Under the pieces are notes generated by a model. The model saw nothing but the letters and a program-made list of their open reading frames with translations. It made no database searches and was not told the DNA's origin. 64,000 nt of DNA from Methylotenera sp. (GTDB taxonomy: Bacteria; Pseudomonadota; Gammaproteobacteria; Burkholderiales; Methylophilaceae): contig JAUXNQ010000066.1 in NCBI GenBank assembly GCA_030682715.1, positions 14,587 through 78,586 on the forward strand, read 5' to 3'. The position numbers and the translations under genes were made by a program. Below, one piece after another: positions 303-35,582 of this stretch. Every line of letters starts with the position of its first letter. The first letter of the stretch is position 1.

Positions 303-884
303 TTAGTGTGTATGTGGATGCAGGGAATGCTCATGAACTTGATCCAATGGCACTGCATCCGAATGGGGATGTTCACCCATGCCTGTCGTATTGTCACGGT
401 AGTAACTAGGGCCAACACCATCTTGTGGTGCTGGCAGCGACATCACGCCCAATCCATGCCGGTAGACTAACTCTCCACCATGCCATGCTGTGATGACGAC
501 TATACTCCATGCACCAACCACCGCAATTACAACCCACCAAACAGTGGGTGAATCTATCTTGTTATGCCAGACATCCCAACCAGCCAAAATGATTAAAACT
601 ACCGATGTTCCTAGCGCCCAGTTACGGTGGATTAACATGGCAGCGTGACTTGCATCATCATGGGTTACGCTGTTATAAGCCTGCCATCCAAAAAAAACAG
701 CTGGCAATACTGATAATGCGCTTAGCCATAATAGAGTGCGAGCAAGAACGGCAAAGTTTGTAGACAAGAACTTCTCTCGCGTTACCGTAGCCGCAATATG
801 AAAAAGAGCTGACACCGTGATAAGTGCAATTGGAAAGTGTACTATCGATGGATGCAGATTAGGTATTATTTCAGGCATTTGCAA
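303..884 (-). CDS. DUF2231-family membrane protein with His-rich C-terminal tail
   Basis: N-terminal LHPSIVHFPIAL motif, about 4 hydrophobic helices, HGGELVY motif, tail HPHS...HEHSLHPHTH; overlaps cusA 3' end. Confidence 0.75.
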   Translation of the reverse strand: MQMPEIIPNLHPSIVHFPIALITVSALFHIAATVTREKFLSTNFAVLARTLLWLSALSVLPAVFFGWQAYNSVTHDDASHAAMLIHRNWALGTSVVLIILAGWDVWHNKIDSPTVWWVVIAVVGAWSIVVITAWHGGELVYRHGLGVMSLPAPQDGVGPSYYRDNTTGMGEHPHSDAVPLDQVHEHSLHPHTH

Positions 885-3800
885 CCTCTTTCCTTTGGAG
901 TGATCTTTGTTTCACAAGTGCGTAAATCGCTGGGATTACGATGAGCGTCAGCACAGTGGCGGATACCATACCTCCTACCATAGGGGCAGCGATACGCCGC
1001 ATTAGCTCTGAACCTGTTCCGCTACTCAACATAACTGGAAACAGGCCTACGATACTTCCAGCAACAGTCATCATTACTGGACGTATCCGGTACACTGAGC
1101 CCTGCACCACTGCGGCGTAAATATCCGCTTGGGTGAGTTGCTCGCTCGCTGCTTCACGCTTTGCTTTGATCTCTTCAAGAGCCTGATTTAGATATACCAA
1201 CATCACCATGCTGGTTTCGGCTCCAATACCGATTAAACCAATGAAACCTACTGCCGCCGCTATGCTCAGGTTGTAATCAAGCCAATACATCAGCCAGACG
1301 CCCCCGACCACGGAGAAAGGTACAGACAGCATTACCATCAGAGTCTCGCTAAAACGATTGAAATTCAAATATAGAAGTACGAATACAATCAGGATGGTGA
1401 TTGGTAATACGACCTTCAACTTTTCAATGGCGCGCTGCATGTACTCAAATTGGCCGCTCCAACTGATGTAATAGCCAGGAGGAAACTTAACCTGTTCACG
1501 AACTGCTTTTTGCGCGTCGGCAACATAACTACCAATATCTCGATCACGAATATCAACAAAAATATATGCTGACAGCAACGCGTTCTCAGTACGTATGCTT
1601 GGCGGACCTTTAACCAGCTTAACCTGTGCAAGTTGCCCAAGCGGTATCATCGCGGCTCCCATGGTTGGCACCAGCACCTGCGTGGCAATTGCCTGCGGAT
1701 CACTTCTCATGTCTCGAGGGTAGCGCACGTTAACGCCAAAGCGCTCGCGACCTTCCACCGTAGTAGTGACCATTTCACCACCTAGCGCCACCGAAACCAC
1801 ATCCAAAAGATCACCAACAGCCAATCCATAGCGAGATAGTGCCTCTCGGTCTGGAACTACATCCAAATAGTATCCGCCAGTAATACGTTCGGCATAGGCG
1901 CTTGTTGTTCCAGGTACTGTTTTAACAACGGCCTCAATCTGTTTAGCGAGAATTTCCATCTCGGTCAGATCCTTACCGAACACTTTGATACCAATCGGTG
2001 TTCGTATACCAGTGGATAGCATATCAGTTCTAGCCTTAATTGGCATAGTCCAGGCGTTACTTACCCCAGGCATTTGAACCGCTTTATCAAGCTCATCAAT
2101 TAACTTGTCGATAGTCATGCCGGGGCGCCACTGATCTTCAGGTTTGAGGTTGATAATAGTCTCAGCCATCTCCAAAGGTGCAGGGTCGGTAGCAGTATTT
2201 GCCCGCCCCGCCTTGCCGAAGACAGACTCCACCTCAGGAAAGCTTTTGATAATCTTATCCTGTGTCTGCAACAGTTCCGCTGCCTTAGTGACAGAAATGC
2301 TTGGCAATGTCGACGGCATGAAAAGCAGCGTGCCTTCATTCAAGGTCGGCATAAATTCCGTACCCAGTTTGAGCGCTGGATAAGCAGTCACCCCAAGCAA
2401 TGCAATTGCTGATAGGACGATAAAACCTTTCCATCGCATCACCCAGAACATTACTGGCCTATACAACCAAATCATCACGCGCACTAATGGATTGTTCTGT
2501 TCGGATGGAATTCGCCCACGAACCAGCAGCAATATCAACACTGGTACCAGCGTAATCGAAAGCAAAGCAGCGCCAGCCATAGCTAATGTTTTCGTATAGG
2601 CAAGAGGCAGAAACATCCGTCCTTCTTGAGCCTCCAGTGTAAACACTGGTAGAAACGATACTGTAATAATCAATAAACTGAAGAACAGTGACGGACCAAC
2701 CTCCTGGCATGCTTTAATAATTGCATCTATACGATTCTTGCCAGGTGATAAGCGTTCGAGATGCTTGTGCGAGGTTTCAATCATCACGATTGCTGCATCG
2801 GTCATCTCTGCAATAGCAATGGCAATGCCACCTAAACTCATGATGTTGGAATTTAAGCCCAAGAATCGCATCGCAATGAAGGCAACCAAAACGCCAATCG
2901 GTAGCATTATGATAGCCACAAGCGCACTGCGTACGTGCATAAGAAATACTACGCACACCAATGCAATAATGATGCCCTGTTGGATAAGAGTCTCACTTAG
3001 CGTGCTGATAGCACGATGAATCAACCCTGAACGGTCATACACGGCCTGAATTGAAACACCTTCTGGTAGGCCCGATGAAATCTCGTTGATTTTATTTTTT
3101 AGATTATGAATGACATCAAGTGCATTCTGCCCATGTCGTGCCACGGCGATGCCGCCAACCGCTTCGCCTTCTCCATTTAACTCTGCAATTCCTCTACGCT
3201 CGTCTGGAACCATTTCAACTCGGGCAACATCGCGCAAGAGCACTGGCGTACCCATGTCAGCCTTAACTACCAAAGTCTCAAGGTCGCTAATCCCGCGTAG
3301 ATAGCCCCTACCTCTAACGACATACTCAGTCTCTGCCATCTCAATTGCTCGACCGCCGACATCGCGGTTGCTCATGGCAATGACATTAGAAACTGTCTTG
3401 AGCGATATACCATAAGTCTGCAAACGTTGTGGGTTGACGGTAACCTGATAAGACTTTACAAAACCACCTATACTGGCTATCTCAGCGACTCCATGTGCCT
3501 TGGTCAATTGATAACGGACAAACCAATCTTGAATAGAGCGCAGTTCATCAAGGGTCTTATGCTTGGCTGTAACAACATATTGATAAACCCAACCTACGCC
3601 AGTAGCATCAGGACCTAACGAAGGCGTGATTCCCTTGGGTAATCTTCCCGCAGCAAAATTCAGGTACTCCAGCACACGCGAGCGTGCCCAGTAGATATCA
3701 GTCCCGTCTTCAAAGATGACATACACGAACGAAGCACCGAAGTTGGAAAATCCACGCACGACTTTGGATTTAGGTACCGACAGCATAGCTGTAGTGAGCG

Positions 3801-4002
3801 GGTATGTAACTTGGTCTTCCACTACCTGTGGTGCCTGCCCAGGATATTCCGTATACACGATGACCTGTACATCCGAGAGATCAGGAATCGCGTCGATTGG
3901 CGTGTTGATGACGCTATATATGCCCCAGGCTACGATAAAAAGTGTTCCGAGCAATACTAAAAAAACATGTCGAACTGACCATTCAATTATTTTATTGAGC
4001 AT
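871..4002 (-). CDS. cusA: CusA-type Cu(I)/Ag(I) RND efflux permease
   Basis: DAIPDLSDVQV and LGPDATGVGW motifs; Met-triad equivalents EFMP, PLEM, WTMP. Start reassigned to ATG at 4002 (MLNKIIEWS), 1 nt after the cusB stop; the ORF-track extension to 4131 overlaps cusB. Confidence 0.93.
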   Translation of the reverse strand: MLNKIIEWSVRHVFLVLLGTLFIVAWGIYSVINTPIDAIPDLSDVQVIVYTEYPGQAPQVVEDQVTYPLTTAMLSVPKSKVVRGFSNFGASFVYVIFEDGTDIYWARSRVLEYLNFAAGRLPKGITPSLGPDATGVGWVYQYVVTAKHKTLDELRSIQDWFVRYQLTKAHGVAEIASIGGFVKSYQVTVNPQRLQTYGISLKTVSNVIAMSNRDVGGRAIEMAETEYVVRGRGYLRGISDLETLVVKADMGTPVLLRDVARVEMVPDERRGIAELNGEGEAVGGIAVARHGQNALDVIHNLKNKINEISSGLPEGVSIQAVYDRSGLIHRAISTLSETLIQQGIIIALVCVVFLMHVRSALVAIIMLPIGVLVAFIAMRFLGLNSNIMSLGGIAIAIAEMTDAAIVMIETSHKHLERLSPGKNRIDAIIKACQEVGPSLFFSLLIITVSFLPVFTLEAQEGRMFLPLAYTKTLAMAGAALLSITLVPVLILLLVRGRIPSEQNNPLVRVMIWLYRPVMFWVMRWKGFIVLSAIALLGVTAYPALKLGTEFMPTLNEGTLLFMPSTLPSISVTKAAELLQTQDKIIKSFPEVESVFGKAGRANTATDPAPLEMAETIINLKPEDQWRPGMTIDKLIDELDKAVQMPGVSNAWTMPIKARTDMLSTGIRTPIGIKVFGKDLTEMEILAKQIEAVVKTVPGTTSAYAERITGGYYLDVVPDREALSRYGLAVGDLLDVVSVALGGEMVTTTVEGRERFGVNVRYPRDMRSDPQAIATQVLVPTMGAAMIPLGQLAQVKLVKGPPSIRTENALLSAYIFVDIRDRDIGSYVADAQKAVREQVKFPPGYYISWSGQFEYMQRAIEKLKVVLPITILIVFVLLYLNFNRFSETLMVMLSVPFSVVGGVWLMYWLDYNLSIAAAVGFIGLIGIGAETSMVMLVYLNQALEEIKAKREAASEQLTQADIYAAVVQGSVYRIRPVMMTVAGSIVGLFPVMLSSGTGSELMRRIAAPMVGGMVSATVLTLIVIPAIYALVKQRSLQRKEVANA

Positions 4003-4003
4003 A

Positions 4004-5344
4004 TCAATGCCCCTTGTGTTCAGAATTGACAGTAGGGGTTGCTGGTTTATCGGTCTCGGATTTGTCCTGTTTGCCATGAGCCGAATGCCCGAAGCCTCCA
4101 ATTGCTGCCTTAAGATTACTTTCTGCATCAATCAGGAAATTGGCACTGACAACAACATTCTCTCCTGCACTTAAGCCTTCAATAACTTCAACATATCCAT
4201 TGCCGCGCATGCCGAGCTTGACGTCGCGTGGTTCGAACAGGCCTTCAGCGCGCTGTATTAGCACGATTTGGCGCGTACCGCTATCGAGTACGGCAGAGTC
4301 TGGTACCATTAAAGCATCGGCTTTGCCGTGGCCTGAGACTAATTGTACGGTGGCATACATCTCGGGCTTGAGTATTCCGTTTGGATTGTCGAGTTCGACA
4401 CGTATTTTGGCGGTCCGTGTCTCGGGTGTGACTGTCGGATAGATATAGGAAACTTTGCCAGTTAAAACTTTATCTGGATAAGCATTAACGCTGATATTCA
4501 CCGACTGCCCAACATGCACTAGTGCCAGATCTTGCTCAAACACATCAGCGAGAAGCCAGATTGATGAAAGGTCAGCAATCTTGAATAACGGCTCACCTGG
4601 CATGAAACGTATACCCGCTACTGCCATTTTTTCCAACACAACGCCATTAGCAGGGGAATACAATGTCAGCGTACGAGTTGCCTTACCATCTTTTATCAAG
4701 CGCTGTAACTGGGCATCGGAAATGTCCCAGTTACGGAGACGTTTGAGAGCACTTTCTGCCAATCGGCTGACACCAACCAGCGACTCCTCTGTACCGCTAC
4801 TTAACGATTGGCGACCATTCCAGGCGATCAGGTATTCCTCTTGCGCTGAAACTAATTCTGGGCTGTACACTTCCATCAGCGGCTGTCCGCGTTTTACTGG
4901 CTGACCAGTAGCGTTGACATGAAGCTTTTCAATATAACCCTCAAACTTCGTCGTAACTGTGTGCAGACGTCTTTCATCCAACTGAAACTGGCCAACAGCA
5001 CGCACCGTCTGGACTAATTCACGTAGTGCAGCTGGCTCTGTCCTCACCCCCAACTTCTGCACCTTCTCAGGGCTGATCTTGATTTGACCAGACTGCACTT
5101 CATCACCTTCATAGACTGGAATATAATCCATGCCCATAGAATCTTGTTTAGGTTCAGGTGATGTATCTGACAAACCCATCGGATTGCGATAATAGAGAAT
5201 TTTCTTTGTGGCGGATATAGAAGTGCCCGTTGAGACTTCGGTCGATGACTTGTTTGATTGCTTTAATCCCAACCAGTAACCGCCCCATGTGGCAACAGCA
5301 ATGCCAATTAGCGCTAGTGCAACCCATATTACAGAGCGTTTCAT
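4004..5344 (-). CDS. cusB: CusB-type RND periplasmic adaptor with N-terminal heavy-metal-binding domain
   Basis: YYRNPMG...DSMGMDYIPVY metal domain, GQPLMEVYSPEL and RTAKIRVELDN adaptor motifs. Confidence 0.9.
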   Translation of the reverse strand: MKRSVIWVALALIGIAVATWGGYWLGLKQSNKSSTEVSTGTSISATKKILYYRNPMGLSDTSPEPKQDSMGMDYIPVYEGDEVQSGQIKISPEKVQKLGVRTEPAALRELVQTVRAVGQFQLDERRLHTVTTKFEGYIEKLHVNATGQPVKRGQPLMEVYSPELVSAQEEYLIAWNGRQSLSSGTEESLVGVSRLAESALKRLRNWDISDAQLQRLIKDGKATRTLTLYSPANGVVLEKMAVAGIRFMPGEPLFKIADLSSIWLLADVFEQDLALVHVGQSVNISVNAYPDKVLTGKVSYIYPTVTPETRTAKIRVELDNPNGILKPEMYATVQLVSGHGKADALMVPDSAVLDSGTRQIVLIQRAEGLFEPRDVKLGMRGNGYVEVIEGLSAGENVVVSANFLIDAESNLKAAIGGFGHSAHGKQDKSETDKPATPTVNSEHKGH

Positions 5345-6645
5345 AAATCTTCCCCAATCATTTTTTCAATCTCAGCAAAGCGCATTTCTTGCTCCACTCT
5401 GGCTCTTATTTGGCCTTGTCTCGCAAGTCTTATTGCTTTTTGTGCATCGAGCAGTGTAGCGAAGTCAACCTTGCCATTTTCGTATCCAGCCAATGCCGAG
5501 CGGAAGGTCAACTCTGCTTGTGGGAGTAATGTATAAGTGATCAGCCGCCCTTGTTTTTCTGCTGCCTCGAAAGCTACTAGGTTTTCTTGCAACTCGCCTA
5601 TTACCTGATTCTCCACTCCGTTACGGCGCTCTTTGGCTGCATCCAGCATAGCGGCAGCCTCACTCTCCTGAGATCTACGAGTATCGAACTGGATTGGAAT
5701 ATTGACCTCCACCATCGCCTCCCAGCTACTGATATTGCCACCACGCTGAGTAGGGGCAATGCCAAGCATTAGATCCGGGTAACGATTCTTTTCTATTAAT
5801 CGCTTGTTAGCGTCTGCGGTCAATATTTGTGCTGATTGTGTAGCAAGTAGTGGATTATTTCGTACCACCTTTTCCTGCAGGACCGCAGTATCCAGCTTTT
5901 CTAGCGGTAAACGACGCAACTCTGGTAACGTGGAAAGCGCTGCACTCTGCGTGCGCCCAAGTGTTGCATTAAGGCGTGACTTAGCCTGTTGCTGTTCAGT
6001 TTCCAGAACAATAATTTCGGACTGCAAGGTGGTTTTTTCAACCTGAGCGCGAATCGCATCTTGCTGGGGTACTAAACCACTGGCATAGCGAACGCGAGTG
6101 ACAGATTCAAGATCACTTAGCAAAGTTAAAATATCCTCGTTAAGCTTCTTCAGGCCAATAGCCTGAAAATACTGGGCATAAGCGTTTTTGATACGGGCGT
6201 GGGTTTCGGCAACGCTGATTAGCCTGCGTCCTTTAAACTGCTCAAGCTGTGCAGTAGCCACTTCCCTGCGTAAGTCACGCTTTCCCCAAAGGGGAATGTT
6301 CTGCATTAAAGTGTATTTAGTTCCACTTCCTTTGCCAAAAAAAGGATTAAATCCATCTGGCGCATCTCGTCCTGCAAAATCCATTAACTCGACGCGTAGC
6401 AACGGGTCAGGCAGCGCACCTGCTGGCGCGATTCGCTCGCTCGCTGCATCAGTTTCATATCTCATTGCCGCAAGCTCAGGGTTGTGCGTGTCTGCCCAGT
6501 TCAGTAATTCCTGCACATTGGCACCGATAGCGTTGCTGGAAGGAACGTCTTCCGCCGATGAAAGCCCTGGCAACATGAATGCTACTAAGGTCAGAACGAG
6601 CATTGTTTTTGAATTGTTTATATACATTATCTTACCTGTATTCAT
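5341..6645 (-). CDS. TolC-family outer-membrane efflux protein (CusC role)
   Basis: Signal peptide, HNPEL, ALPDP, YASGLV and YENGKVDFATLL repeats; directly upstream of cusB with ATGA overlap. Confidence 0.88.
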   Translation of the reverse strand: MNTGKIMYINNSKTMLVLTLVAFMLPGLSSAEDVPSSNAIGANVQELLNWADTHNPELAAMRYETDAASERIAPAGALPDPLLRVELMDFAGRDAPDGFNPFFGKGSGTKYTLMQNIPLWGKRDLRREVATAQLEQFKGRRLISVAETHARIKNAYAQYFQAIGLKKLNEDILTLLSDLESVTRVRYASGLVPQQDAIRAQVEKTTLQSEIIVLETEQQQAKSRLNATLGRTQSAALSTLPELRRLPLEKLDTAVLQEKVVRNNPLLATQSAQILTADANKRLIEKNRYPDLMLGIAPTQRGGNISSWEAMVEVNIPIQFDTRRSQESEAAAMLDAAKERRNGVENQVIGELQENLVAFEAAEKQGRLITYTLLPQAELTFRSALAGYENGKVDFATLLDAQKAIRLARQGQIRARVEQEMRFAEIEKMIGEDL

Positions 6646-6686
6646 CTCAATGGCTAGCTCGCTAAGTTGCGGCTAGCCCAGATGCC

Positions 6687-7016
6687 TTATTTAAGCGGTT
6701 TTATTTTTGTAATCAATGGACCGCCACCGTCAACTTTAACGAACTCAAATTCAACCTGATCTCCAACTTTTACCGTATCCAGCAGAGTCTTGTCAGCTAC
6801 GTTAAAAAACATGGTCATACCAGGCCATTGAAGCTCTGGAACAGCGTCATGCTTCAATTTAACCTTGCTTAATGCACCGTCCACGGCAACTACTTCACCT
6901 TTTGCAGAATAACTCTTTTGATTACCTACAGTCTGATGGTGGGCATCGTTGGCGTAGACTGGAGCAGCAACGATACTCAATATCGCTACGAACATGCAAA
7001 TTAATAACTTTTTCAT
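6687..7016 (-). CDS. cusF: CusF periplasmic copper-binding chaperone
   Basis: Signal peptide plus LKHDAVPELQWPGMTMFF (His/Trp/Met/Met site). Confidence 0.9.
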   Translation of the reverse strand: MKKLLICMFVAILSIVAAPVYANDAHHQTVGNQKSYSAKGEVVAVDGALSKVKLKHDAVPELQWPGMTMFFNVADKTLLDTVKVGDQVEFEFVKVDGGGPLITKIKPLK

Positions 7017-7040
7017 TTCTAATGGCCTTTTTATATTAAT

Positions 7041-7070
7041 AACGCTGGGTTGGCATTGCCACCCAGCGTT
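7041..7070. terminator. Intergenic stem-loop between the Met-rich gene and cusF (partial terminator or stabiliser)
   Basis: aacgctgggt / acccagcgtt 10-bp inverted repeat; weak U-tract on the coding strand. Confidence 0.5.
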
Positions 7071-7074
7071 TTAT

Positions 7075-7461
7075 TTAGTGCTTATGCTTATCAGCACTCA
7101 TACATCCCATTTCTTTTTGCATGTGATGTTCTTTCATCATCTGCCCCATCAAGTCATCCATAAGTTTCTGATGCTCATTGATCCAGTCCTCATGCTCCTG
7201 CATTGTCATACCTGACTTCGGTTTCATCTTCTGCATCTTTCCCATGGTGTCACCCATCATTTTCATGTGCTCTTCCATCAGTTTTACTTTCTCAGCCCCA
7301 GTTGCAGCTTCTGCCTCTTTAAGCTTCTGCTTGGCTTTCAAAACTTGTTGAGTCATCTGCCTTTGAAACTCGTCCTTAGCTGCGTTCGCGGATACGGATA
7401 AAAAACTGAGACTACATACAGCAAGTATTGCAATCATTCTATTAATGTTGTGTTTTTTCAT
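7075..7461 (-). CDS. Secreted Met/His-rich helical protein, putative periplasmic Cu(I) binder
   Basis: Start at 7461 (MKKHN) with AGGAG RBS; 27-aa signal peptide ending ANA; mature 101 aa has 17 Met and 7 His by manual count. Confidence 0.75.
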   Translation of the reverse strand: MKKHNINRMIAILAVCSLSFLSVSANAAKDEFQRQMTQQVLKAKQKLKEAEAATGAEKVKLMEEHMKMMGDTMGKMQKMKPKSGMTMQEHEDWINEHQKLMDDLMGQMMKEHHMQKEMGCMSADKHKH

Positions 7462-7774
7462 GATAAATACTCCTAGTTGATAAAAGGTCACTACAGTTTT
7501 GCTTCACGAAGGAACGTCAATGTTATGCACTTGGTTAGCTGTCTATAAAAGACGTGTAAACATTGATACCCTTCGCTCTGCAATTCTTTAGAAGTGGTTC
7601 AGTATGTCGTGAAGGTATCTGTATAGGCGTGAAAAGCCATACGCTAAACCTCGAACGGATATAAAACCACCGCCGGGAATACGTGCCGAAGAAATGAAAG
7701 TGTGTTAGGTACGATCAAATACTCAGATAAGCATCTGAGTTCAAGAGCCGTTTAAAACAAGACGACCTTCGGCA

Positions 7775-8146
7775 CTATGCGAAGGTTTGCCTGGGGGGAT
7801 GAAAAAGTGAGGGTGGAACTGTGTCTGGAACTTCAGATATATCAGTGGAGTACATAGGTAATGTGCCACTAAATTCCAGAGGGGTGTTAAATGGAATAAT
7901 TGCCTGAGCTACGCTTAAATGGCAAGGCAGACACTTGTCACATGTTACATTGTTAGCTGGTTTTGCACTGTCATGGTGATCGCAGTGAGTCATATCGTCC
8001 ATATTGTTCATGTCAGCACCAACCATCATTTGGTGAGGGTCGTGCATTTGACAATTAGGCATAGCCACAGCTGCAATGCCTTCTAAGGGGAGGCATATCA
8101 GCATAACGAAAAGCGTAATGAATTTAATTATTGAAGTATTCACCAA
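7775..8146 (-). CDS. DUF2946/CopL/CzcI-like leader protein (CruR-like upstream ORF)
   Basis: N-terminal hydrophobic segment, His/Met/Cys-rich middle, CDKCLPCH, Pro-rich C-terminus ending HPPRQTFA; heads a metal-efflux operon. Confidence 0.65.
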   Translation of the reverse strand: MVNTSIIKFITLFVMLICLPLEGIAAVAMPNCQMHDPHQMMVGADMNNMDDMTHCDHHDSAKPANNVTCDKCLPCHLSVAQAIIPFNTPLEFSGTLPMYSTDISEVPDTVPPSLFHPPRQTFA

Positions 8147-8262
8147 ACAACTTTACGCCTAAATAAAGTTCTTTGCAATTGCTTGTACGTTCATTACTAG
8201 ATAAAACATAGAAATTTTATATATGCGTCCGTTATTGGCTGATTCCAACAGGGCAGACAACG

Positions 8263-8815
8263 TTACTGACGCGGACTTAACGTAACCACCAAGCCACGGT
8301 CGGTCACTTTCATTTCTTTTGGATAATATTATGTTGTGCCAACCTTAAGCGAATCAGCCTTTACCGTATAAAGATTAAGGCCATTCAATAACTGGCTACC
8401 TAGCATCTTAGCTAGACCTGTCATTGCATCTGCATACTTTGGCTCTACGCCATCAATCACAAAATCATCGACTTCTGCATCGTTTAGAATCACTGAGTTG
8501 CTGACAGTATCTAACTGTAAGTTGCCCGATACTGCTAGCTTCCCTGCCATTTTTTTGCCAGTGAGTTGATTCATTAACTGCGTATCAAATTTTGTATATA
8601 TCCTACCTGTCGCATGGTCAAACTTAACATTTGCATTACTTAAACTAAGATCGAACACTTTGAGCAAAGATAACGGAATCACCAGCTTTTCATTCAGCTT
8701 GGTTTGAATTTGTTGCTCGGAGATATAGACTGTTTTATTTGAGAAACCAGCACAGCCCGATTAAGATGAAAATAATCGGAAATATGAGGCTTAAGAATTT
8801 AGCATTAATCCTCAT
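8263..8815 (-). pseudogene. DUF1439-like lipoprotein pseudogene (one frameshift plus one premature stop)
   Basis: ATG 8815 MRINAKFLSLIFPIIFILI, extra G at 8756-8758 breaks the LIGC lipobox; frame resumes GCAGFSNKTVYISEQQIQ; in-frame TAA at 8329-8331, then YYPKEMKVTDRGLVVTLSPRQ to the stop at 8263. Confidence 0.75.
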
Positions 8816-35087: not shown

Positions 35088-35582
35088 TTAGCGTGCTGTA
35101 TGCGCTACGGTAAAGTCAGCACGTAATAAATTTAATATCTCACGTAACTCAGCTTTAACTTTAGCATAATCAAAAGCTTTAGCATCAGCATCTGTAGAAA
35201 CAGAACCTGACACAGTGCTTGGTGATGCTTCGTTAGCATCATGGGATTTTACTGTAGCCTGCTTATCCTGCTGACCAGACTTACCATTAAACTCTGCGAC
35301 ATCAAGGCGGTTACGAGCACCGCTAATGGTAAAGCCCTGCTCATATAACAACTCGCGAATACGGCGGATTAGCAATACTTCATGATGTTGATAATAGCGA
35401 CGATTACCGCGTCGCTTAACTGGTTTAAGTTGAGTAAACTCCTGCTCCCAGTATCTTAATACGTGGGGTTTTACACCACAAAGCTCGCTAACCTCACCAA
35501 TTGTAAAGTAGCGCTTTGCTGGAATTGGTGGCAATTGCACCTTGGCGACCTGCTCACTCATACTTTCGGCTTTCTCACTCAT
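35088..35582 (-). CDS. MerR-family regulator (ihfA-linked)
   Basis: PAKRYFTIGEVSELC..KPHVLRYWEQEF..LKPVKRRGNRRYY. Confidence 0.9.
   Translation of the reverse strand: MSEKAESMSEQVAKVQLPPIPAKRYFTIGEVSELCGVKPHVLRYWEQEFTQLKPVKRRGNRRYYQHHEVLLIRRIRELLYEQGFTISGARNRLDVAEFNGKSGQQDKQATVKSHDANEASPSTVSGSVSTDADAKAFDYAKVKAELREILNLLRADFTVAHTAR

What the first reader, a model, noticed from the sequence alone, without database searches (positions are those of the whole stretch)
7683..8146. CruR-like copper-sensing arrest peptide wired to a mutually exclusive RNA switch ahead of an efflux operon
Seen: the 123-aa leader ORF has an export-type N-terminus, a His/Met/Cys tract, CxxCxxC and a Pro-rich tail ending HPPR four residues before the stop. 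Its stop codon (7775-7777) lies in the loop of a 7-bp hairpin (7765-7771 / 7780-7786). The 3' arm of that hairpin can instead form a perfect 9-bp helix (7767-7775 with 7683-7691). A ribosome paused at PPR (7790-7798) would cover the 5' arm and favour the second fold. Established: the DUF2946 protein CruR of Bordetella uses CxxC plus a C-terminal RAPP stalling motif to control a copper importer post-transcriptionally. Inference: here the same logic may control an exporter, needing opposite polarity, and may replace a transcription factor.
Basis: partly seen in the sequence, partly recalled or inferred. Interest (0 to 1): 0.75.

Follow-up and report, generated by a model that had tools for sequence, protein, structure and literature searches.

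The report
Copper-sensing leader peptide before cus pump
A small exported, cysteine-rich peptide gene ending in ...FHPPRQTFA sits in front of a copper efflux operon, with its stop codon inside an RNA hairpin that competes with a second helix; it is a likely new member of the known CutF/CruR/CusD class of copper-sensing, ribosome-stalling leader peptides rather than a new kind of system.

Summary
On the minus strand, a 122/123-aa ORF (8146/8143..7775) heads a Met-rich gene and cusF-cusC-cusB-cusA. It has a signal peptide, a Met/His/Cys tract, CDKCLPC and ...FHPPRQTFA. Its stop codon lies in the loop of the 7-bp hairpin, which extends to 11 bp plus UGUUUU. The hairpin's 3' arm can instead form a 9-10-bp helix with 7692-7683.

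Across 28 distinct homologous sequences (49 loci, Methylotenera and one Methylophilus MAG) both folds are kept, with a few compensatory changes. Two divergent lineages rebuild the same three-segment competition with different letters.

The protein is not a Pfam DUF2946 member; it belongs to a large sister clade that fits the published "CutF-like" rule set. Copper-induced stalling that switches on a detoxification gene is already shown for CutF. CutF-like genes before cus/OEP genes are already catalogued (CusD, SilD).

A C>G bubble centred on the Pro-Pro codons mirrors the CruR rut layout. The most likely mechanism is stalling-controlled read-through (attenuation).

This scan has already found comparable leaders on other DNA. 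Verdict: new member of a known kind, with a lineage-specific leader RNA.

The parts
8150..8178 (-). Conserved sigma-70-like promoter of the leader: TTGCAA (8178-8173), a 17-nt spacer, then TAAAGT (8155-8150). The start codon follows only 6 nt later with no Shine-Dalgarno, so the transcript may be leaderless.
   Evidence: The alignment of 24 upstream regions from different genomic contexts keeps AATTGCAAAG...GCGTAAAGT, while the 6 nt before the start codon vary freely. The transcription start site was not mapped.
7775..8146 (-). Leader ORF of 123 aa from TTG 8146 (more likely 122 aa from GTG 8143), with stop TAG at 7777-7775.
   Evidence: There are 22 close protein homologues and 2355 representative clusters at E <= 1e-3 with a family profile. 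AlphaFold2 models only the N-terminal helix with confidence; residues 29-123 have pLDDT < 50.
8063..8146 (-). Sec-type signal peptide (residues 1-28, ...LPLEGIAAVA|M).
   Evidence: This rests on sequence inspection. LPL(E/Q)G.AA is conserved in alignments A1 and A3, and AlphaFold2 gives a helix at residues 4-18. No SignalP-type tool was available.
7922..7942 (-). Cys motif C69-x-x-C72-x-x-C75. C72 and C75 are invariant, even in 22-36%-identical paralogues.
   Evidence: Alignment A1 has invariant columns C32, C72, C75, P117 and P118.
7790..7801 (-). H116-P117-P118-R119 codons (CAU CCC CCC AGG), the candidate arrest site. The two Pro codons are CCC CCC in 24 of 25 close homologues.
7744..7886 (-). 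C>G bubble, a rut-like C-rich and G-poor stretch. The peak 78-nt window is 7860-7783, with 28 C and 8 G.
   Evidence: C/G is 3.5, against a 99th percentile of 2.0 for the window's minus strand. A bubble at the same place relative to the Pro-Pro codons is present in all 14 homologues and distant paralogues tested. CruR has the same layout (PMC9426467).
7754..7792 (-). Stop-codon hairpin H1. The 5' arm is 7792-7789 plus 7786-7780, and the 8-nt loop holds the TAG. The 3' arm is 7771-7765 plus 7763-7760, and the U-rich tail UGUUUU is 7759-7754.
   Evidence: Energy -12.3 kcal/mol, z = -2.1; the terminator scan flags it. Pair counts over 28 sequences and the compensatory G-C to A-U change in L087 are. 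The hairpin is rebuilt with other letters in L003 and L093.
7683..7775 (-). Domain 1, closed by long-range helix P1 (7775-7766 with 7692-7683), which shares 7771-7766 with the 3' arm of H1. Inside it lie the P2 hairpin (7740-7733 with 7728-7721) and a G-free C-rich tract (about 7715-7693).
   Evidence: MFE -31.5 kcal/mol, z = -3.6, 0 of 200 shuffles. RNAalifold selects P1 and P2. Compensatory changes: P1 C-G to U-A in L003 and L093; P2 C-G to G-C in L083 and two changes in L011.
7574..7671 (-). Domain 2, the most conserved non-coding block. P3 pairs GGUGGUUUUA (7671-7662) with UGAACCACU (7601-7593), enclosing inner helices, and is followed by CUCUA..AAUUGCAG.
   Evidence: As DNA it occurs once per genome, only next to the leader, in 5 of 151 family genomes searched. 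There is no Rfam match. Its function is unknown.
7462..7573 (-). Variable spacer up to the Shine-Dalgarno AGGAG (7474-7470) of the next gene. Here it holds an approximately 85-nt insertion relative to the Methylotenera mobilis-type loci.
   Evidence: gaps of 225, about 305-313, or 337-391 nt.
7075..7461 (-). First downstream gene: an exported Met/His-rich 128-aa protein. It is lost or truncated in some relatives.
871..7016 (-). cusF (7016-6687), cusC/OEP (6645-5341), cusB (5344-4004) and cusA (4131-871, longest ORF).
   Evidence: Pfam matches: CusF_Ec 7.9e-27, OEP 3.3e-35, HlyD_D23 6e-82 and ACR_tran 1.7e-231. The same gene order follows the leader in the unrelated contexts L010-L016.

Best explanation
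The ORF is a cis-acting, co-translationally exported copper-sensing leader peptide of the CutF/CusD type. It gates expression of the downstream Met-rich gene and cusFCBA.

Proposed mechanism, and what each step rests on:
- The leader is transcribed from its own constitutive-looking promoter. Its nascent chain is threaded through SecYEG (inferred).
- When the ribosome reaches P117-P118, the invariant C72xxC75, 41 residues back, would lie at the periplasmic mouth of the translocon. This follows from geometry, by analogy with CutF.
- Copper bound there prolongs the Pro-Pro pause (inferred, by analogy with CutF).
- A ribosome with P118 in its P site covers roughly 7810-7780. That span holds the whole 5' arm of the stop-codon hairpin and the 3' end of the C-rich rut-like tract (sequence plus the known ribosome footprint).
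- The 3' arm is then free to form the long-range helix P1 with 7692-7683 (shown by constraint folds). The terminator-like hairpin and Rho loading are prevented, and RNA polymerase reads on into the cus genes (inferred).
- Without copper the ribosome runs to the stop codon and leaves. The local hairpin H1, with its U-rich tail, forms and the C-rich tract is naked. Transcription then ends prematurely, either by Rho as in CruR or at the hairpin itself, and only the leader is expressed (inferred).
For: Protein anatomy:
- Signal peptide, Met/His/Cys tract, invariant CxxC and invariant PP six residues before the stop.
- The mature part is predicted to be disordered.
- It belongs to a large family with the same layout, ending in RPPR or HPPK plus 4-6 residues. 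Some members score just below the DUF2946 threshold.

Synteny:
- The leader travels with cusF/cusCBA into at least five different upstream contexts.

RNA:
- H1 and P1 are mutually exclusive and both fold better than shuffled sequence. They are conserved in 28 distinct sequences with compensatory changes.
- In L003 and L093 the same three-segment competition is rebuilt with different letters: UCAGCAC, GUGCUGA, UCAGCAC.
- Constraint folds give H1 before segment 3 exists and P1 when the PP region is occupied. The two states lie within 1-4 kcal/mol of each other.

Termination signals:
- The C>G bubble centred on the PP codons (C/G 3.5, above the 99th percentile) is conserved even in paralogues of about 30% identity. 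This is the layout of the mapped CruR rut site (PMC9426467).

Output level:
- The spacer between domain 2 and the next Shine-Dalgarno varies by about 85-170 nt, and the first downstream gene can be lost. This argues for control at the transcript level rather than masking of one particular ribosome-binding site.

Absence of other regulators:
- No CueR or CusRS/CopRS was detected in this assembly.

Literature:
- CutF shows copper-induced stalling that raises CutO (PMC9973294; bioRxiv 10.1101/2025.02.05.636593).
- In Cupriavidus metallidurans cusDCBAF, only cusD is expressed without metal, and no two-component system lies nearby (PMC10304878; table in PMC11647585).
Against:
- HPPR is not among the strongest known Pro-Pro stall contexts (my own knowledge).
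- The sequences are closely related, so covariation rests on few events. Several lineages carry mismatches in H1 (L016, L059, L083) or in P1 (L011, L068, L073/76).
- The U-rich tail after H1 is absent in L003 and L093 and is displaced in L011. An intrinsic terminator is therefore not general.
- A ribosome sitting at the stop codon would also block H1, so the kinetics are unclear.
- P1's 3' strand lies downstream of the U tract, so P1 cannot act as a classical antiterminator of H1.
- The C>G bubble may partly reflect the Pro/Ser/Thr-rich amino-acid composition.
- The function of the strongly conserved domain 2 is unexplained.
Confidence: 0.5

Rival explanations
1. The 123-aa product is simply a periplasmic copper-binding accessory protein or chaperone of the Cus system, as the Nies laboratory reads CusD. 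On this view the conserved intergenic block is DNA, namely an internal promoter and operator for an unidentified regulator, and the RNA helices are incidental.
For: - The mature part is rich in Met, His and Cys, which are typical Cu(I) ligands.
- CusD is interpreted as a copper-sequestering periplasmic protein in PMC10304878.
- Domain 2 ends in palindrome-like AATTGCA and, in some relatives, TACAGAAATTGTAAT. That resembles CopR/CusR boxes as I recall them.
- A palindrome ATAGAATTTCTAT lies upstream of the leader promoter in several relatives.
Against: - The mature chain is predicted to be disordered.
- The last 20 residues, and the PP itself, are the most conserved part of the protein. That fits an arrest peptide and is odd for a chaperone.
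- No acceptable -10/-35 pair was found in 7774-7470 (and inspection).
- No CopR/CusR or CueR was found in the genome.
- Compensatory changes and re-registered hairpins preserve pairing rather than sequence.
- The window's own copy lacks the TACA..TGTAAT form.
Confidence: 0.2
2. This is a pure CruR-type Rho attenuator. The stalled ribosome blocks Rho on the C-rich 3' end of the ORF, and the H1/P1 alternative has no switching role, serving at most as a polymerase pause or an RNA-stability element.
For: - The C>G bubble is conserved across the whole wider family. The particular helices are lineage-specific, and distant paralogues have other hairpins that a ribosome stalled at PP cannot reach.
- The CruR precedent has a 162-nt intergenic region (PMC9426467).
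Against: - The three-segment competition is kept in three lineages with different sequences.
- The two states are nearly isoenergetic.
- Synonymous sites in the last eight codons vary less (about 0.05) than the ORF average (about 0.15).
Confidence: 0.15
3. Control is translational, as in CutF. The stall-dependent refolding ultimately unmasks the Shine-Dalgarno of the Met-rich gene. Candidate masking partners are GUAUUCC (7682-7676) or the anti-SD-like ACUUCUA (7596-7590) pairing with UAGGAGU.
For: - In the MFE folds of several loci the SD pairs with UUCC just 3' of P1.
- The window, L014 and L093 carry ACUUCUA, which is complementary to UAGGAGU.
- There is the CutF precedent (PMC9973294).
Against: - The pairing partners are 110-210 nt away.
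- In L068 and L089 both partners changed without compensating each other.
- Predicted SD accessibility does not shift consistently between the free and stalled states.
- The spacer length and the identity of the first downstream gene both vary.
Confidence: 0.1
4. The dyad ACCTTCG-N8-CGAAGGT is a DNA operator for a CueR/MerR-type activator rather than an RNA hairpin.
For: Its half-sites resemble the CueR box ACCTTCC-N7-GGAAGGT (my recollection). A true CueR-type promoter in relatives reads TTGACCTTACCACTGTGGAAAGCTT.
Against: - The spacing is one base too long, and there is no -10 at the right distance.
- The only MerR-family gene in this genome is the housekeeping one after ihfA.
- In L003 and L093 the hairpin is kept with an unrelated sequence.
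- The compensatory change in L087 preserves pairing.
- The other four genome copies of the loose pattern are unremarkable.
Confidence: 0.03

Closest known systems
CutF of Rhodobacter capsulatus (cutFOG; PMC8456105, PMC9973294, bioRxiv 10.1101/2025.02.05.636593)
   Same: - A small protein with a Sec signal peptide, a Cys metal motif about 41-45 residues before a C-terminal Pro-rich motif followed by Arg, and a disordered, short-lived-looking mature part.
- It is the first gene of a copper-detoxification operon.
- An RNA stem-loop directly after the ORF can be remodelled by a stalled ribosome.
- The required polarity is the same: copper gives a stall, which switches expression on.
   Different: - The motif here is CxxC(xxC) rather than CxxxC, and HPPR plus four residues rather than PPPRL.
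- The next gene is 313 nt away rather than adjacent, and the hairpin does not contain its Shine-Dalgarno.
- There is a second, competing long-range helix and a further conserved domain of about 100 nt.
- The operon encodes an RND pump rather than a multicopper oxidase.
- No detectable pairwise sequence similarity was tested or claimed.
CruR (Bp2923) of Bordetella pertussis, DUF2946/PF11162 (PMC9426467)
   Same: - An upstream ORF with an export signal, CxxC, and PP near the C-terminus.
- A long intergenic region.
- A C>G bubble that starts in the 3' part of the ORF, as at the mapped rut site.
- A stalled ribosome would protect against premature termination.
   Different: - The Pfam model does not match this protein.
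- There is no RAPP motif.
- The Cys-to-Pro spacing is 41 residues rather than 47.
- CruR controls an importer, and copper relieves its stall.
- CruR regulation did not need the signal peptide.
CusD / SilD of Cupriavidus metallidurans CH34 (cusDCBAF, silDCBA; PMC10304878, PMC11647585; labelled as CutF-like in PMC9973294 Fig. 6)
   Same: - A small Cys/Met/His-rich exported protein that is the first gene of a cus-type RND operon.
- No copper two-component system lies nearby.
- In published data the leader gene is expressed without metal while cusCBA is not. That is the pattern expected for attenuation after the leader.
   Different: - CusD is described as a Tat-exported lipoprotein and interpreted as a chaperone.
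- Sequence relatedness to the window's protein was not tested here.
- No RNA switch has been described for it.
TnaC / SecM class of arrest-peptide attenuators
   Same: In this class a nascent-chain-dependent stall near the stop codon controls Rho access (TnaC) or downstream RNA structure (SecM). This comparison rests on established knowledge as summarised in PMC9973294 and PMC9426467.
   Different: The ligand, the peptide sequence and the operon all differ. No homology is implied.

Membership tests
Pfam DUF2946 (PF11162; CruR family) | Match to the family HMM at or above the gathering score (23.7 bits). | tested here: not met
   - The window protein has no hit at E <= 1 or E <= 10.
- Four of 21 family and paralogue sequences hit weakly, best E 0.004.
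- Distant profile hits reach 22.5 bits.
- hhalign against 23 true DUF2946 proteins aligns only 25 columns around CxxC (probability 16%, E 1.6e-3).
Pfam DUF2946 (PF11162; CruR family) | Conserved CXXC motif. | tested here: met
   C72-L-P-C75 is invariant in alignment A1.
Pfam DUF2946 (PF11162; CruR family) | C-terminal RAPP motif about 3 residues before the end, and about 45 residues between CXXC and RAPP (PMC9426467). | tested here: not met
   - The tail is FHPP-RQTFA, so PP is followed by 5 residues, and Arg-Ala is replaced by Phe-His.
- There are 39 residues between C75 and F115 (41 to P117). Bona fide members sampled here have 47 between the second Cys and the first Pro.
Pfam DUF2946 (PF11162; CruR family) | N-terminal export signal. 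| tested here: met
   The N-terminus has a K-rich n-region, a hydrophobic core and AVA|M. AlphaFold2 gives a helix at residues 4-18. This is by inspection only, with no dedicated predictor.
CutF-like proteins (rule set of Ozturk et al. 2023, PMC9973294: list B/D filters) | [quoted passage not shown] | tested here: met
   The protein is 122/123 aa, and P117-P118 are 6-7 residues from the end. The signal peptide is as described above.
CutF-like proteins (rule set of Ozturk et al. 2023, PMC9973294: list B/D filters) | [quoted passage not shown] | tested here: met
   There is a 313-nt gap to the Met-rich gene, followed by CusF_Ec, OEP, HlyD_D23 and ACR_tran. The same holds in L010-L016.
CutF-like proteins (rule set of Ozturk et al. 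2023, PMC9973294: list B/D filters) | Retrieved by iterative sequence search seeded from CutF, or membership of one of the 29 SSN clusters. | not tested
   No CutF sequence was at hand. The paper's supplementary text files hold no Methylotenera entry.
Arrest-peptide attenuator (functional class) | Copper-dependent ribosome stalling at the PP motif, and cis-only action on downstream expression. | not testable with these tools
   This needs toeprinting, ribosome profiling or reporters.
Rho-dependent attenuator | A C-rich, G-poor unstructured tract (C>G bubble) upstream of the termination zone. | tested here: met
   The window 7860-7783 has C/G 3.5, above the 99th percentile of the background. 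The bubble is conserved in 14 of 14 homologues and paralogues. Rho dependence itself is not testable here.
Intrinsic terminator | A stable G+C-rich stem directly followed by a U tract. | tested here: inconclusive
   - The stem is 11 bp with one bulge and one internal loop, at -12.3 kcal/mol, with the tail UGUUUUAAAC.
- The tail is conserved in the main group but absent in L003 and L093 and displaced in L011.

The most novel reading that the evidence does not exclude
In this Methylotenera module the arrest peptide would be the only copper sensor of the cus operon, with no CueR or CusRS. It would work through a three-segment RNA relay.
- The stalled ribosome hides segment 1, the 5' arm of a terminator-like hairpin that contains the stop codon.
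- Segment 2 then pairs with segment 3, about 85 nt downstream.
- This closes a structured leader of about 200 nt and licenses transcription into the pump genes.

That would be a copper-ON, transcription-level variant combining CutF polarity with CruR-style attenuation. It may be expressed from a leaderless GUG mRNA.
Probability: 0.3. Interest if true: 0.6.

Novelty: new member of a known kind. Interest (0 to 1): 0.4.

Why it matters
Copper efflux pumps are usually described as controlled by CusRS or CueR. If a nascent exported peptide alone can set cus transcription, that gives a transcription-factor-free way of sensing periplasmic copper. Ozturk et al. and Roy et al. predicted this for CusD/SilD-type genes, but it has never been tested for an RND pump.

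This locus is a good test case for three reasons:
- It has a compact and conserved RNA anatomy: a stop-codon hairpin, a competing helix and a C>G bubble.
- Natural variants already carry compensatory changes.
- The host genome appears to lack the usual copper regulators.

It also shows that a large family, with more than 2000 clusters at 50% identity, lies just outside Pfam DUF2946 and is left unannotated.

Tried and rejected
- **Rfam.** A scan of 7000-8300 at E <= 10 gave only noise.
- **CueR-operator reading of the dyad.** Rejected: the spacing is wrong, there is no -10, there is no cueR in the genome, and the hairpin is kept with other letters.
- **Internal sigma-70 promoter in the intergenic region.** None was found by the scan or by eye.
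- **CopR/CusR-box-like TACAGAAATTGTAAT.** It is present in some relatives but not in the window, and no CopR/CusR is present.
- **Shine-Dalgarno masking by GUAUUCC.** It appears in MFE folds but has no covariation, and both partners changed without compensation in L068 and L089.
- **A 7-codon mini-ORF overlapping the stop (UAGUG...UAA).** The start is lost in L073/76, L086 and L011, and a premature stop occurs in L016.
- **Other small ORFs in 7470-7780.** None is convincing.
- **Synonymous-site test.** The last eight codons vary less than average, but the sequences are too similar for a firm statistic.
- **Plasmid collection.** tblastn found no match.
- **The search for related loci with the broad alignment A1.** This failed because the alignment is too divergent. 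It worked with A3.
- **Supplementary files of PMC9973294.** The text files held contain no Methylotenera or CusD entries.
Full report
**1. What is there**

The feature lies on the minus strand. An ORF runs from 8146 (TTG) or, more likely, 8143 (GTG) to the TAG at 7777-7775. The GTG is favoured because homologues begin M/V-K-x-K-I-I-K at that position.

- The product starts with a typical Sec signal peptide (KFITLFVMLICLPLEGIAAVA|M).
- A Met/His/Cys-rich stretch follows (MPNCQMHDPHQMM...HCDHHD).
- It then carries C69DKC72LPC75 and ends ...VPPSLFHPPRQTFA.

Downstream on the same strand lie:

- an exported Met-rich protein (7461-7075);
- CusF (PF11604, 7.9e-27);
- an OEP/CusC;
- a CusB-type fusion protein (HlyD_D23, 6e-82);
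- a CusA-type RND pump (ACR_tran, 1.7e-231).

**2. The protein family**

Neither Pfam nor NCBIfam recognises the protein.

- 22 close homologues exist, nearly all unannotated, and one is labelled Methylotenera.
- Across these and more distant paralogues (22-36% identity), the invariant positions are C32, C72, C75, P117 and P118.
- A profile of the family finds 2355 representative clusters (50% identity level) at E <= 1e-3. These are full-length matches of 110-150 aa with the same plan: LPLQG.AA signal peptide, His-rich stretch, CxxC, and a tail such as ERPPRxxLx or HPPKxxxx.
- A few of these score just under the DUF2946 gathering threshold over the whole length (22.5 against 23.7 bits).
- The window protein itself does not score. 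A profile-profile comparison with 23 true DUF2946 proteins from the same order aligns only the CxxC box (probability 16%).
- AlphaFold2 models only the signal-peptide helix with confidence; residues 29-123 are below pLDDT 50.

The protein is therefore a member of a large sister clade of DUF2946. It meets every item of the published rule set for "CutF-like" proteins in PMC9973294: fewer than 150 aa, PP in the last 15 residues, a signal peptide, and a same-strand neighbour within 1 kb. It is not a Pfam DUF2946 member and it lacks RAPP.

**3. Synteny**

The leader is always followed by (Met-rich gene)-cusF-cusC-cusB-cusA, while the upstream genes differ between loci.

- The gap to the next gene is 225, about 305-313, or 337-391 nt.
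- In some relatives the Met-rich gene is truncated or lost.
- The module is patchy. The leader was found in 6 of 61 relatives searched with the protein, and domain 2 in 5 of 151 family genomes, all in one genus and once per genome.

**4. The RNA**

I aligned 28 distinct sequences from 49 loci, running from the PP codons to about 230 nt past the stop. The non-coding part is as conserved as the ORF. No Rfam family matches.

- Its energy is -12.3 kcal/mol, z = -2.1, and the terminator scan flags it.

It closes a domain that contains a perfect 8-bp hairpin, P2.
- The domain folds at -31.5 kcal/mol, z = -3.6, with none of 200 shuffles as good.
- RNAalifold selects P1, P2 and a second domain closed by GGUGGUUUUA/UGAACCACY.

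*Informative substitutions* are few but point the right way:
- P1: C-G to U-A in L003 and L093.
- H1 extension: G-C to A-U in L087, where an Arg-to-Lys codon change is matched downstream.
- P2: C-G to G-C in L083, and two compensations in L011.
- The bulged C at 7764 varies freely.

*Different letters in other lineages.* The two most divergent lineages (about 50% protein identity) keep the same logic with different letters. UCAGCAC at the end of the ORF and UCAGCAC about 85 nt downstream both complement GUGCUGA just after the stop. L011 has yet another closing helix, GGAUACCAUG/CAUGUAUCC.

*Constraint folds*:
- Before segment 3 is transcribed, H1 is the best fold.
- With the PP region occupied, P1 is the best fold.
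- The two full-length states differ by only 1-4 kcal/mol.

*Blemishes.* L016, L059 and L083 weaken H1. L068, L073/76 and L011 weaken P1.

**5. Geometry**

With P118 in the P site (7795-7793), a ribosome protects roughly to 7780. That covers the whole 5' arm of H1 but stops short of P1, which begins at 7775.

A ribosome at the stop codon would instead cover the 5' strand of P1. This follows from the sequence and the known ribosome footprint.

C75 lies 41 residues before P117. That is close to the 45 residues discussed for CutF, which place the metal motif at the periplasmic vestibule of SecY while the tail is in the exit tunnel (PMC9973294, Discussion).

**6. Termination signals**

A 78-nt sliding window shows a C>G bubble peaking at 7860-7783 (28 C, 8 G; ratio 3.5, against a 99th percentile of 2.0 for the window). 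This is the last 80 nt of the ORF, centred on the PP codons.

The bubble sits at the same place in all 14 homologues and paralogues examined, including those with only about 30% identity and a different intergenic RNA.

CruR has this layout. Its rut site was mapped to a C>G bubble in the 3' part of the ORF, and the stalled ribosome is proposed to keep Rho away (PMC9426467, sections 7 and 11). Part of the bias may come from the Pro/Ser/Thr-rich composition.

The U tract after H1 is conserved in the main group but not in L003 or L093, so an intrinsic terminator cannot be the general solution.

**7. Regulators**

- In this 95%-complete assembly, no CueR was found.
- No response regulator or kinase reaches the CopR/CusR or CopS/CusS cut-offs: best scores 168 against 279 bits, and 138 against 293 bits.
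- The only MerR-family gene is the housekeeping one after pheT-ihfA.
- Relatives do have a true CueR, but it sits next to a paralogous leader of about 135-140 aa. That leader lies behind a MerR-type promoter (TTGACC-N19-CAAGAT), in a copA-cueR-leader-...-cusF cluster.
- The window's leader instead has a conserved TTGCAA-N17-TAAAGT promoter. Only six variable bases separate it from the start codon, with no Shine-Dalgarno.

**8. Mechanism**

The best-supported reading is a CutF-polarity, CruR-style attenuator.

- Copper bound to the nascent exported chain prolongs the PP pause.
- The paused ribosome hides H1's 5' arm and the end of the rut-like tract.
- P1 forms, and polymerase reads through.
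- Otherwise the ribosome finishes and leaves, H1 forms, the C-rich RNA is exposed, and transcription stops before the pump genes.

Which steps are shown and which inferred:

- Shown computationally: the anatomy, the competition between the helices, its conservation, and the C>G bubble.
- Inferred: copper binding, stalling, polarity, and the nature of the terminator.

Two further points support control at the transcript level:

- The spacer before the next Shine-Dalgarno, and the identity of the first downstream gene, both vary.
- In C. metallidurans cusDCBAF, published data show only cusD expressed without metal (PMC10304878; PMC11647585).

Domain 2 remains unexplained.

**9. Comparison and novelty**

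- Copper-dependent arrest leaders are known: CruR (2022) and CutF (2021-2025).
- CutF-like genes upstream of OEP/CusA/CusB/CusF are reported as the commonest context, and CusD and SilD are named (PMC9973294).
- Earlier follow-ups in this scan reached the same class for other genomes.

What is specific here:

- a Methylotenera-restricted structured leader of about 230 nt with a three-segment competition around the stop codon;
- a likely leaderless start;
- a host without the usual copper regulators.

I therefore file it as a new member of a known kind, of moderate interest. The RNA relay is the part that could make it a new variant if experiments confirm it.

**10. Limits**

- Most homologues are close relatives, so covariation statistics are weak.
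- The signal peptide was judged by eye.
- CutF and CusD sequences were not compared directly.

Noticed in passing
window 8141-8178 (minus strand): The conserved -10 (TAAAGT, 8155-8150) lies only 6 variable nucleotides before the GTG/ATG start of the leader, and there is no Shine-Dalgarno. The leader mRNA may therefore be leaderless, which would be unusual for a GUG start.
   Followed up: partly
window about 8205-8225; L016, L075, L080 upstream regions: A near-perfect palindrome ATAGAA-T-TTCTAT lies about 35 nt upstream of the leader's -35 in several relatives; the window's copy is degenerate (ATAAAATTTCTAT). It may be a binding site for an unknown regulator.
   Followed up: no
L006 1..3384 (G025); also L004, L007, L008: Relatives carry a second copper cluster: copA (3' part), cueR, a MerR-type promoter TTGACC-N19-CAAGAT, a paralogous leader of 133-140 aa ending LFHPPK(H/L)xxx, two small ORFs and cusF. 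Here a CueR promoter and an arrest-type leader are combined. This cluster and cueR were not found in the window's own genome.
   Followed up: partly
window 7574-7671: Domain 2 of the leader RNA is more conserved than the leader protein between the divergent lineages L003/L093 and the main group. It has no Rfam match and no ORF. Its 3' strand, AACCACYUCUA, resembles the anti-Shine-Dalgarno end of 16S rRNA. Its function is unknown.
   Followed up: partly
window 7490-7573: There is an insertion of about 85 nt relative to the M. mobilis-type loci. It folds into its own long hairpin (CGAAGG...CCUUCG, UCAAUG...CAUUGA), and its arms repeat the CGAAGG/CCTTCG words of the H1/P1 switch.
   Followed up: no
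window 7754-7777: A 7-codon mini-ORF (GUG CCG AAG GUC GUC UUG UUU UAA) overlaps the leader stop as UAGUG. L087 changes it only synonymously and has an AUG start. However, three lineages lose the start and L016 gains a stop, so it is probably not a gene.
   Followed up: yes
L011-L013, L016, L014 (relatives): The Met-rich first downstream gene is deleted, leaving a remnant of its first 8 codons fused before the cusF Shine-Dalgarno, or is truncated in several relatives. It is therefore dispensable for the module.
   Followed up: partly
window 35088-35582 (minus strand): This is the only MerR-family gene of the genome. It lies directly after pheT and ihfA and is not CueR-like.
   Followed up: yes
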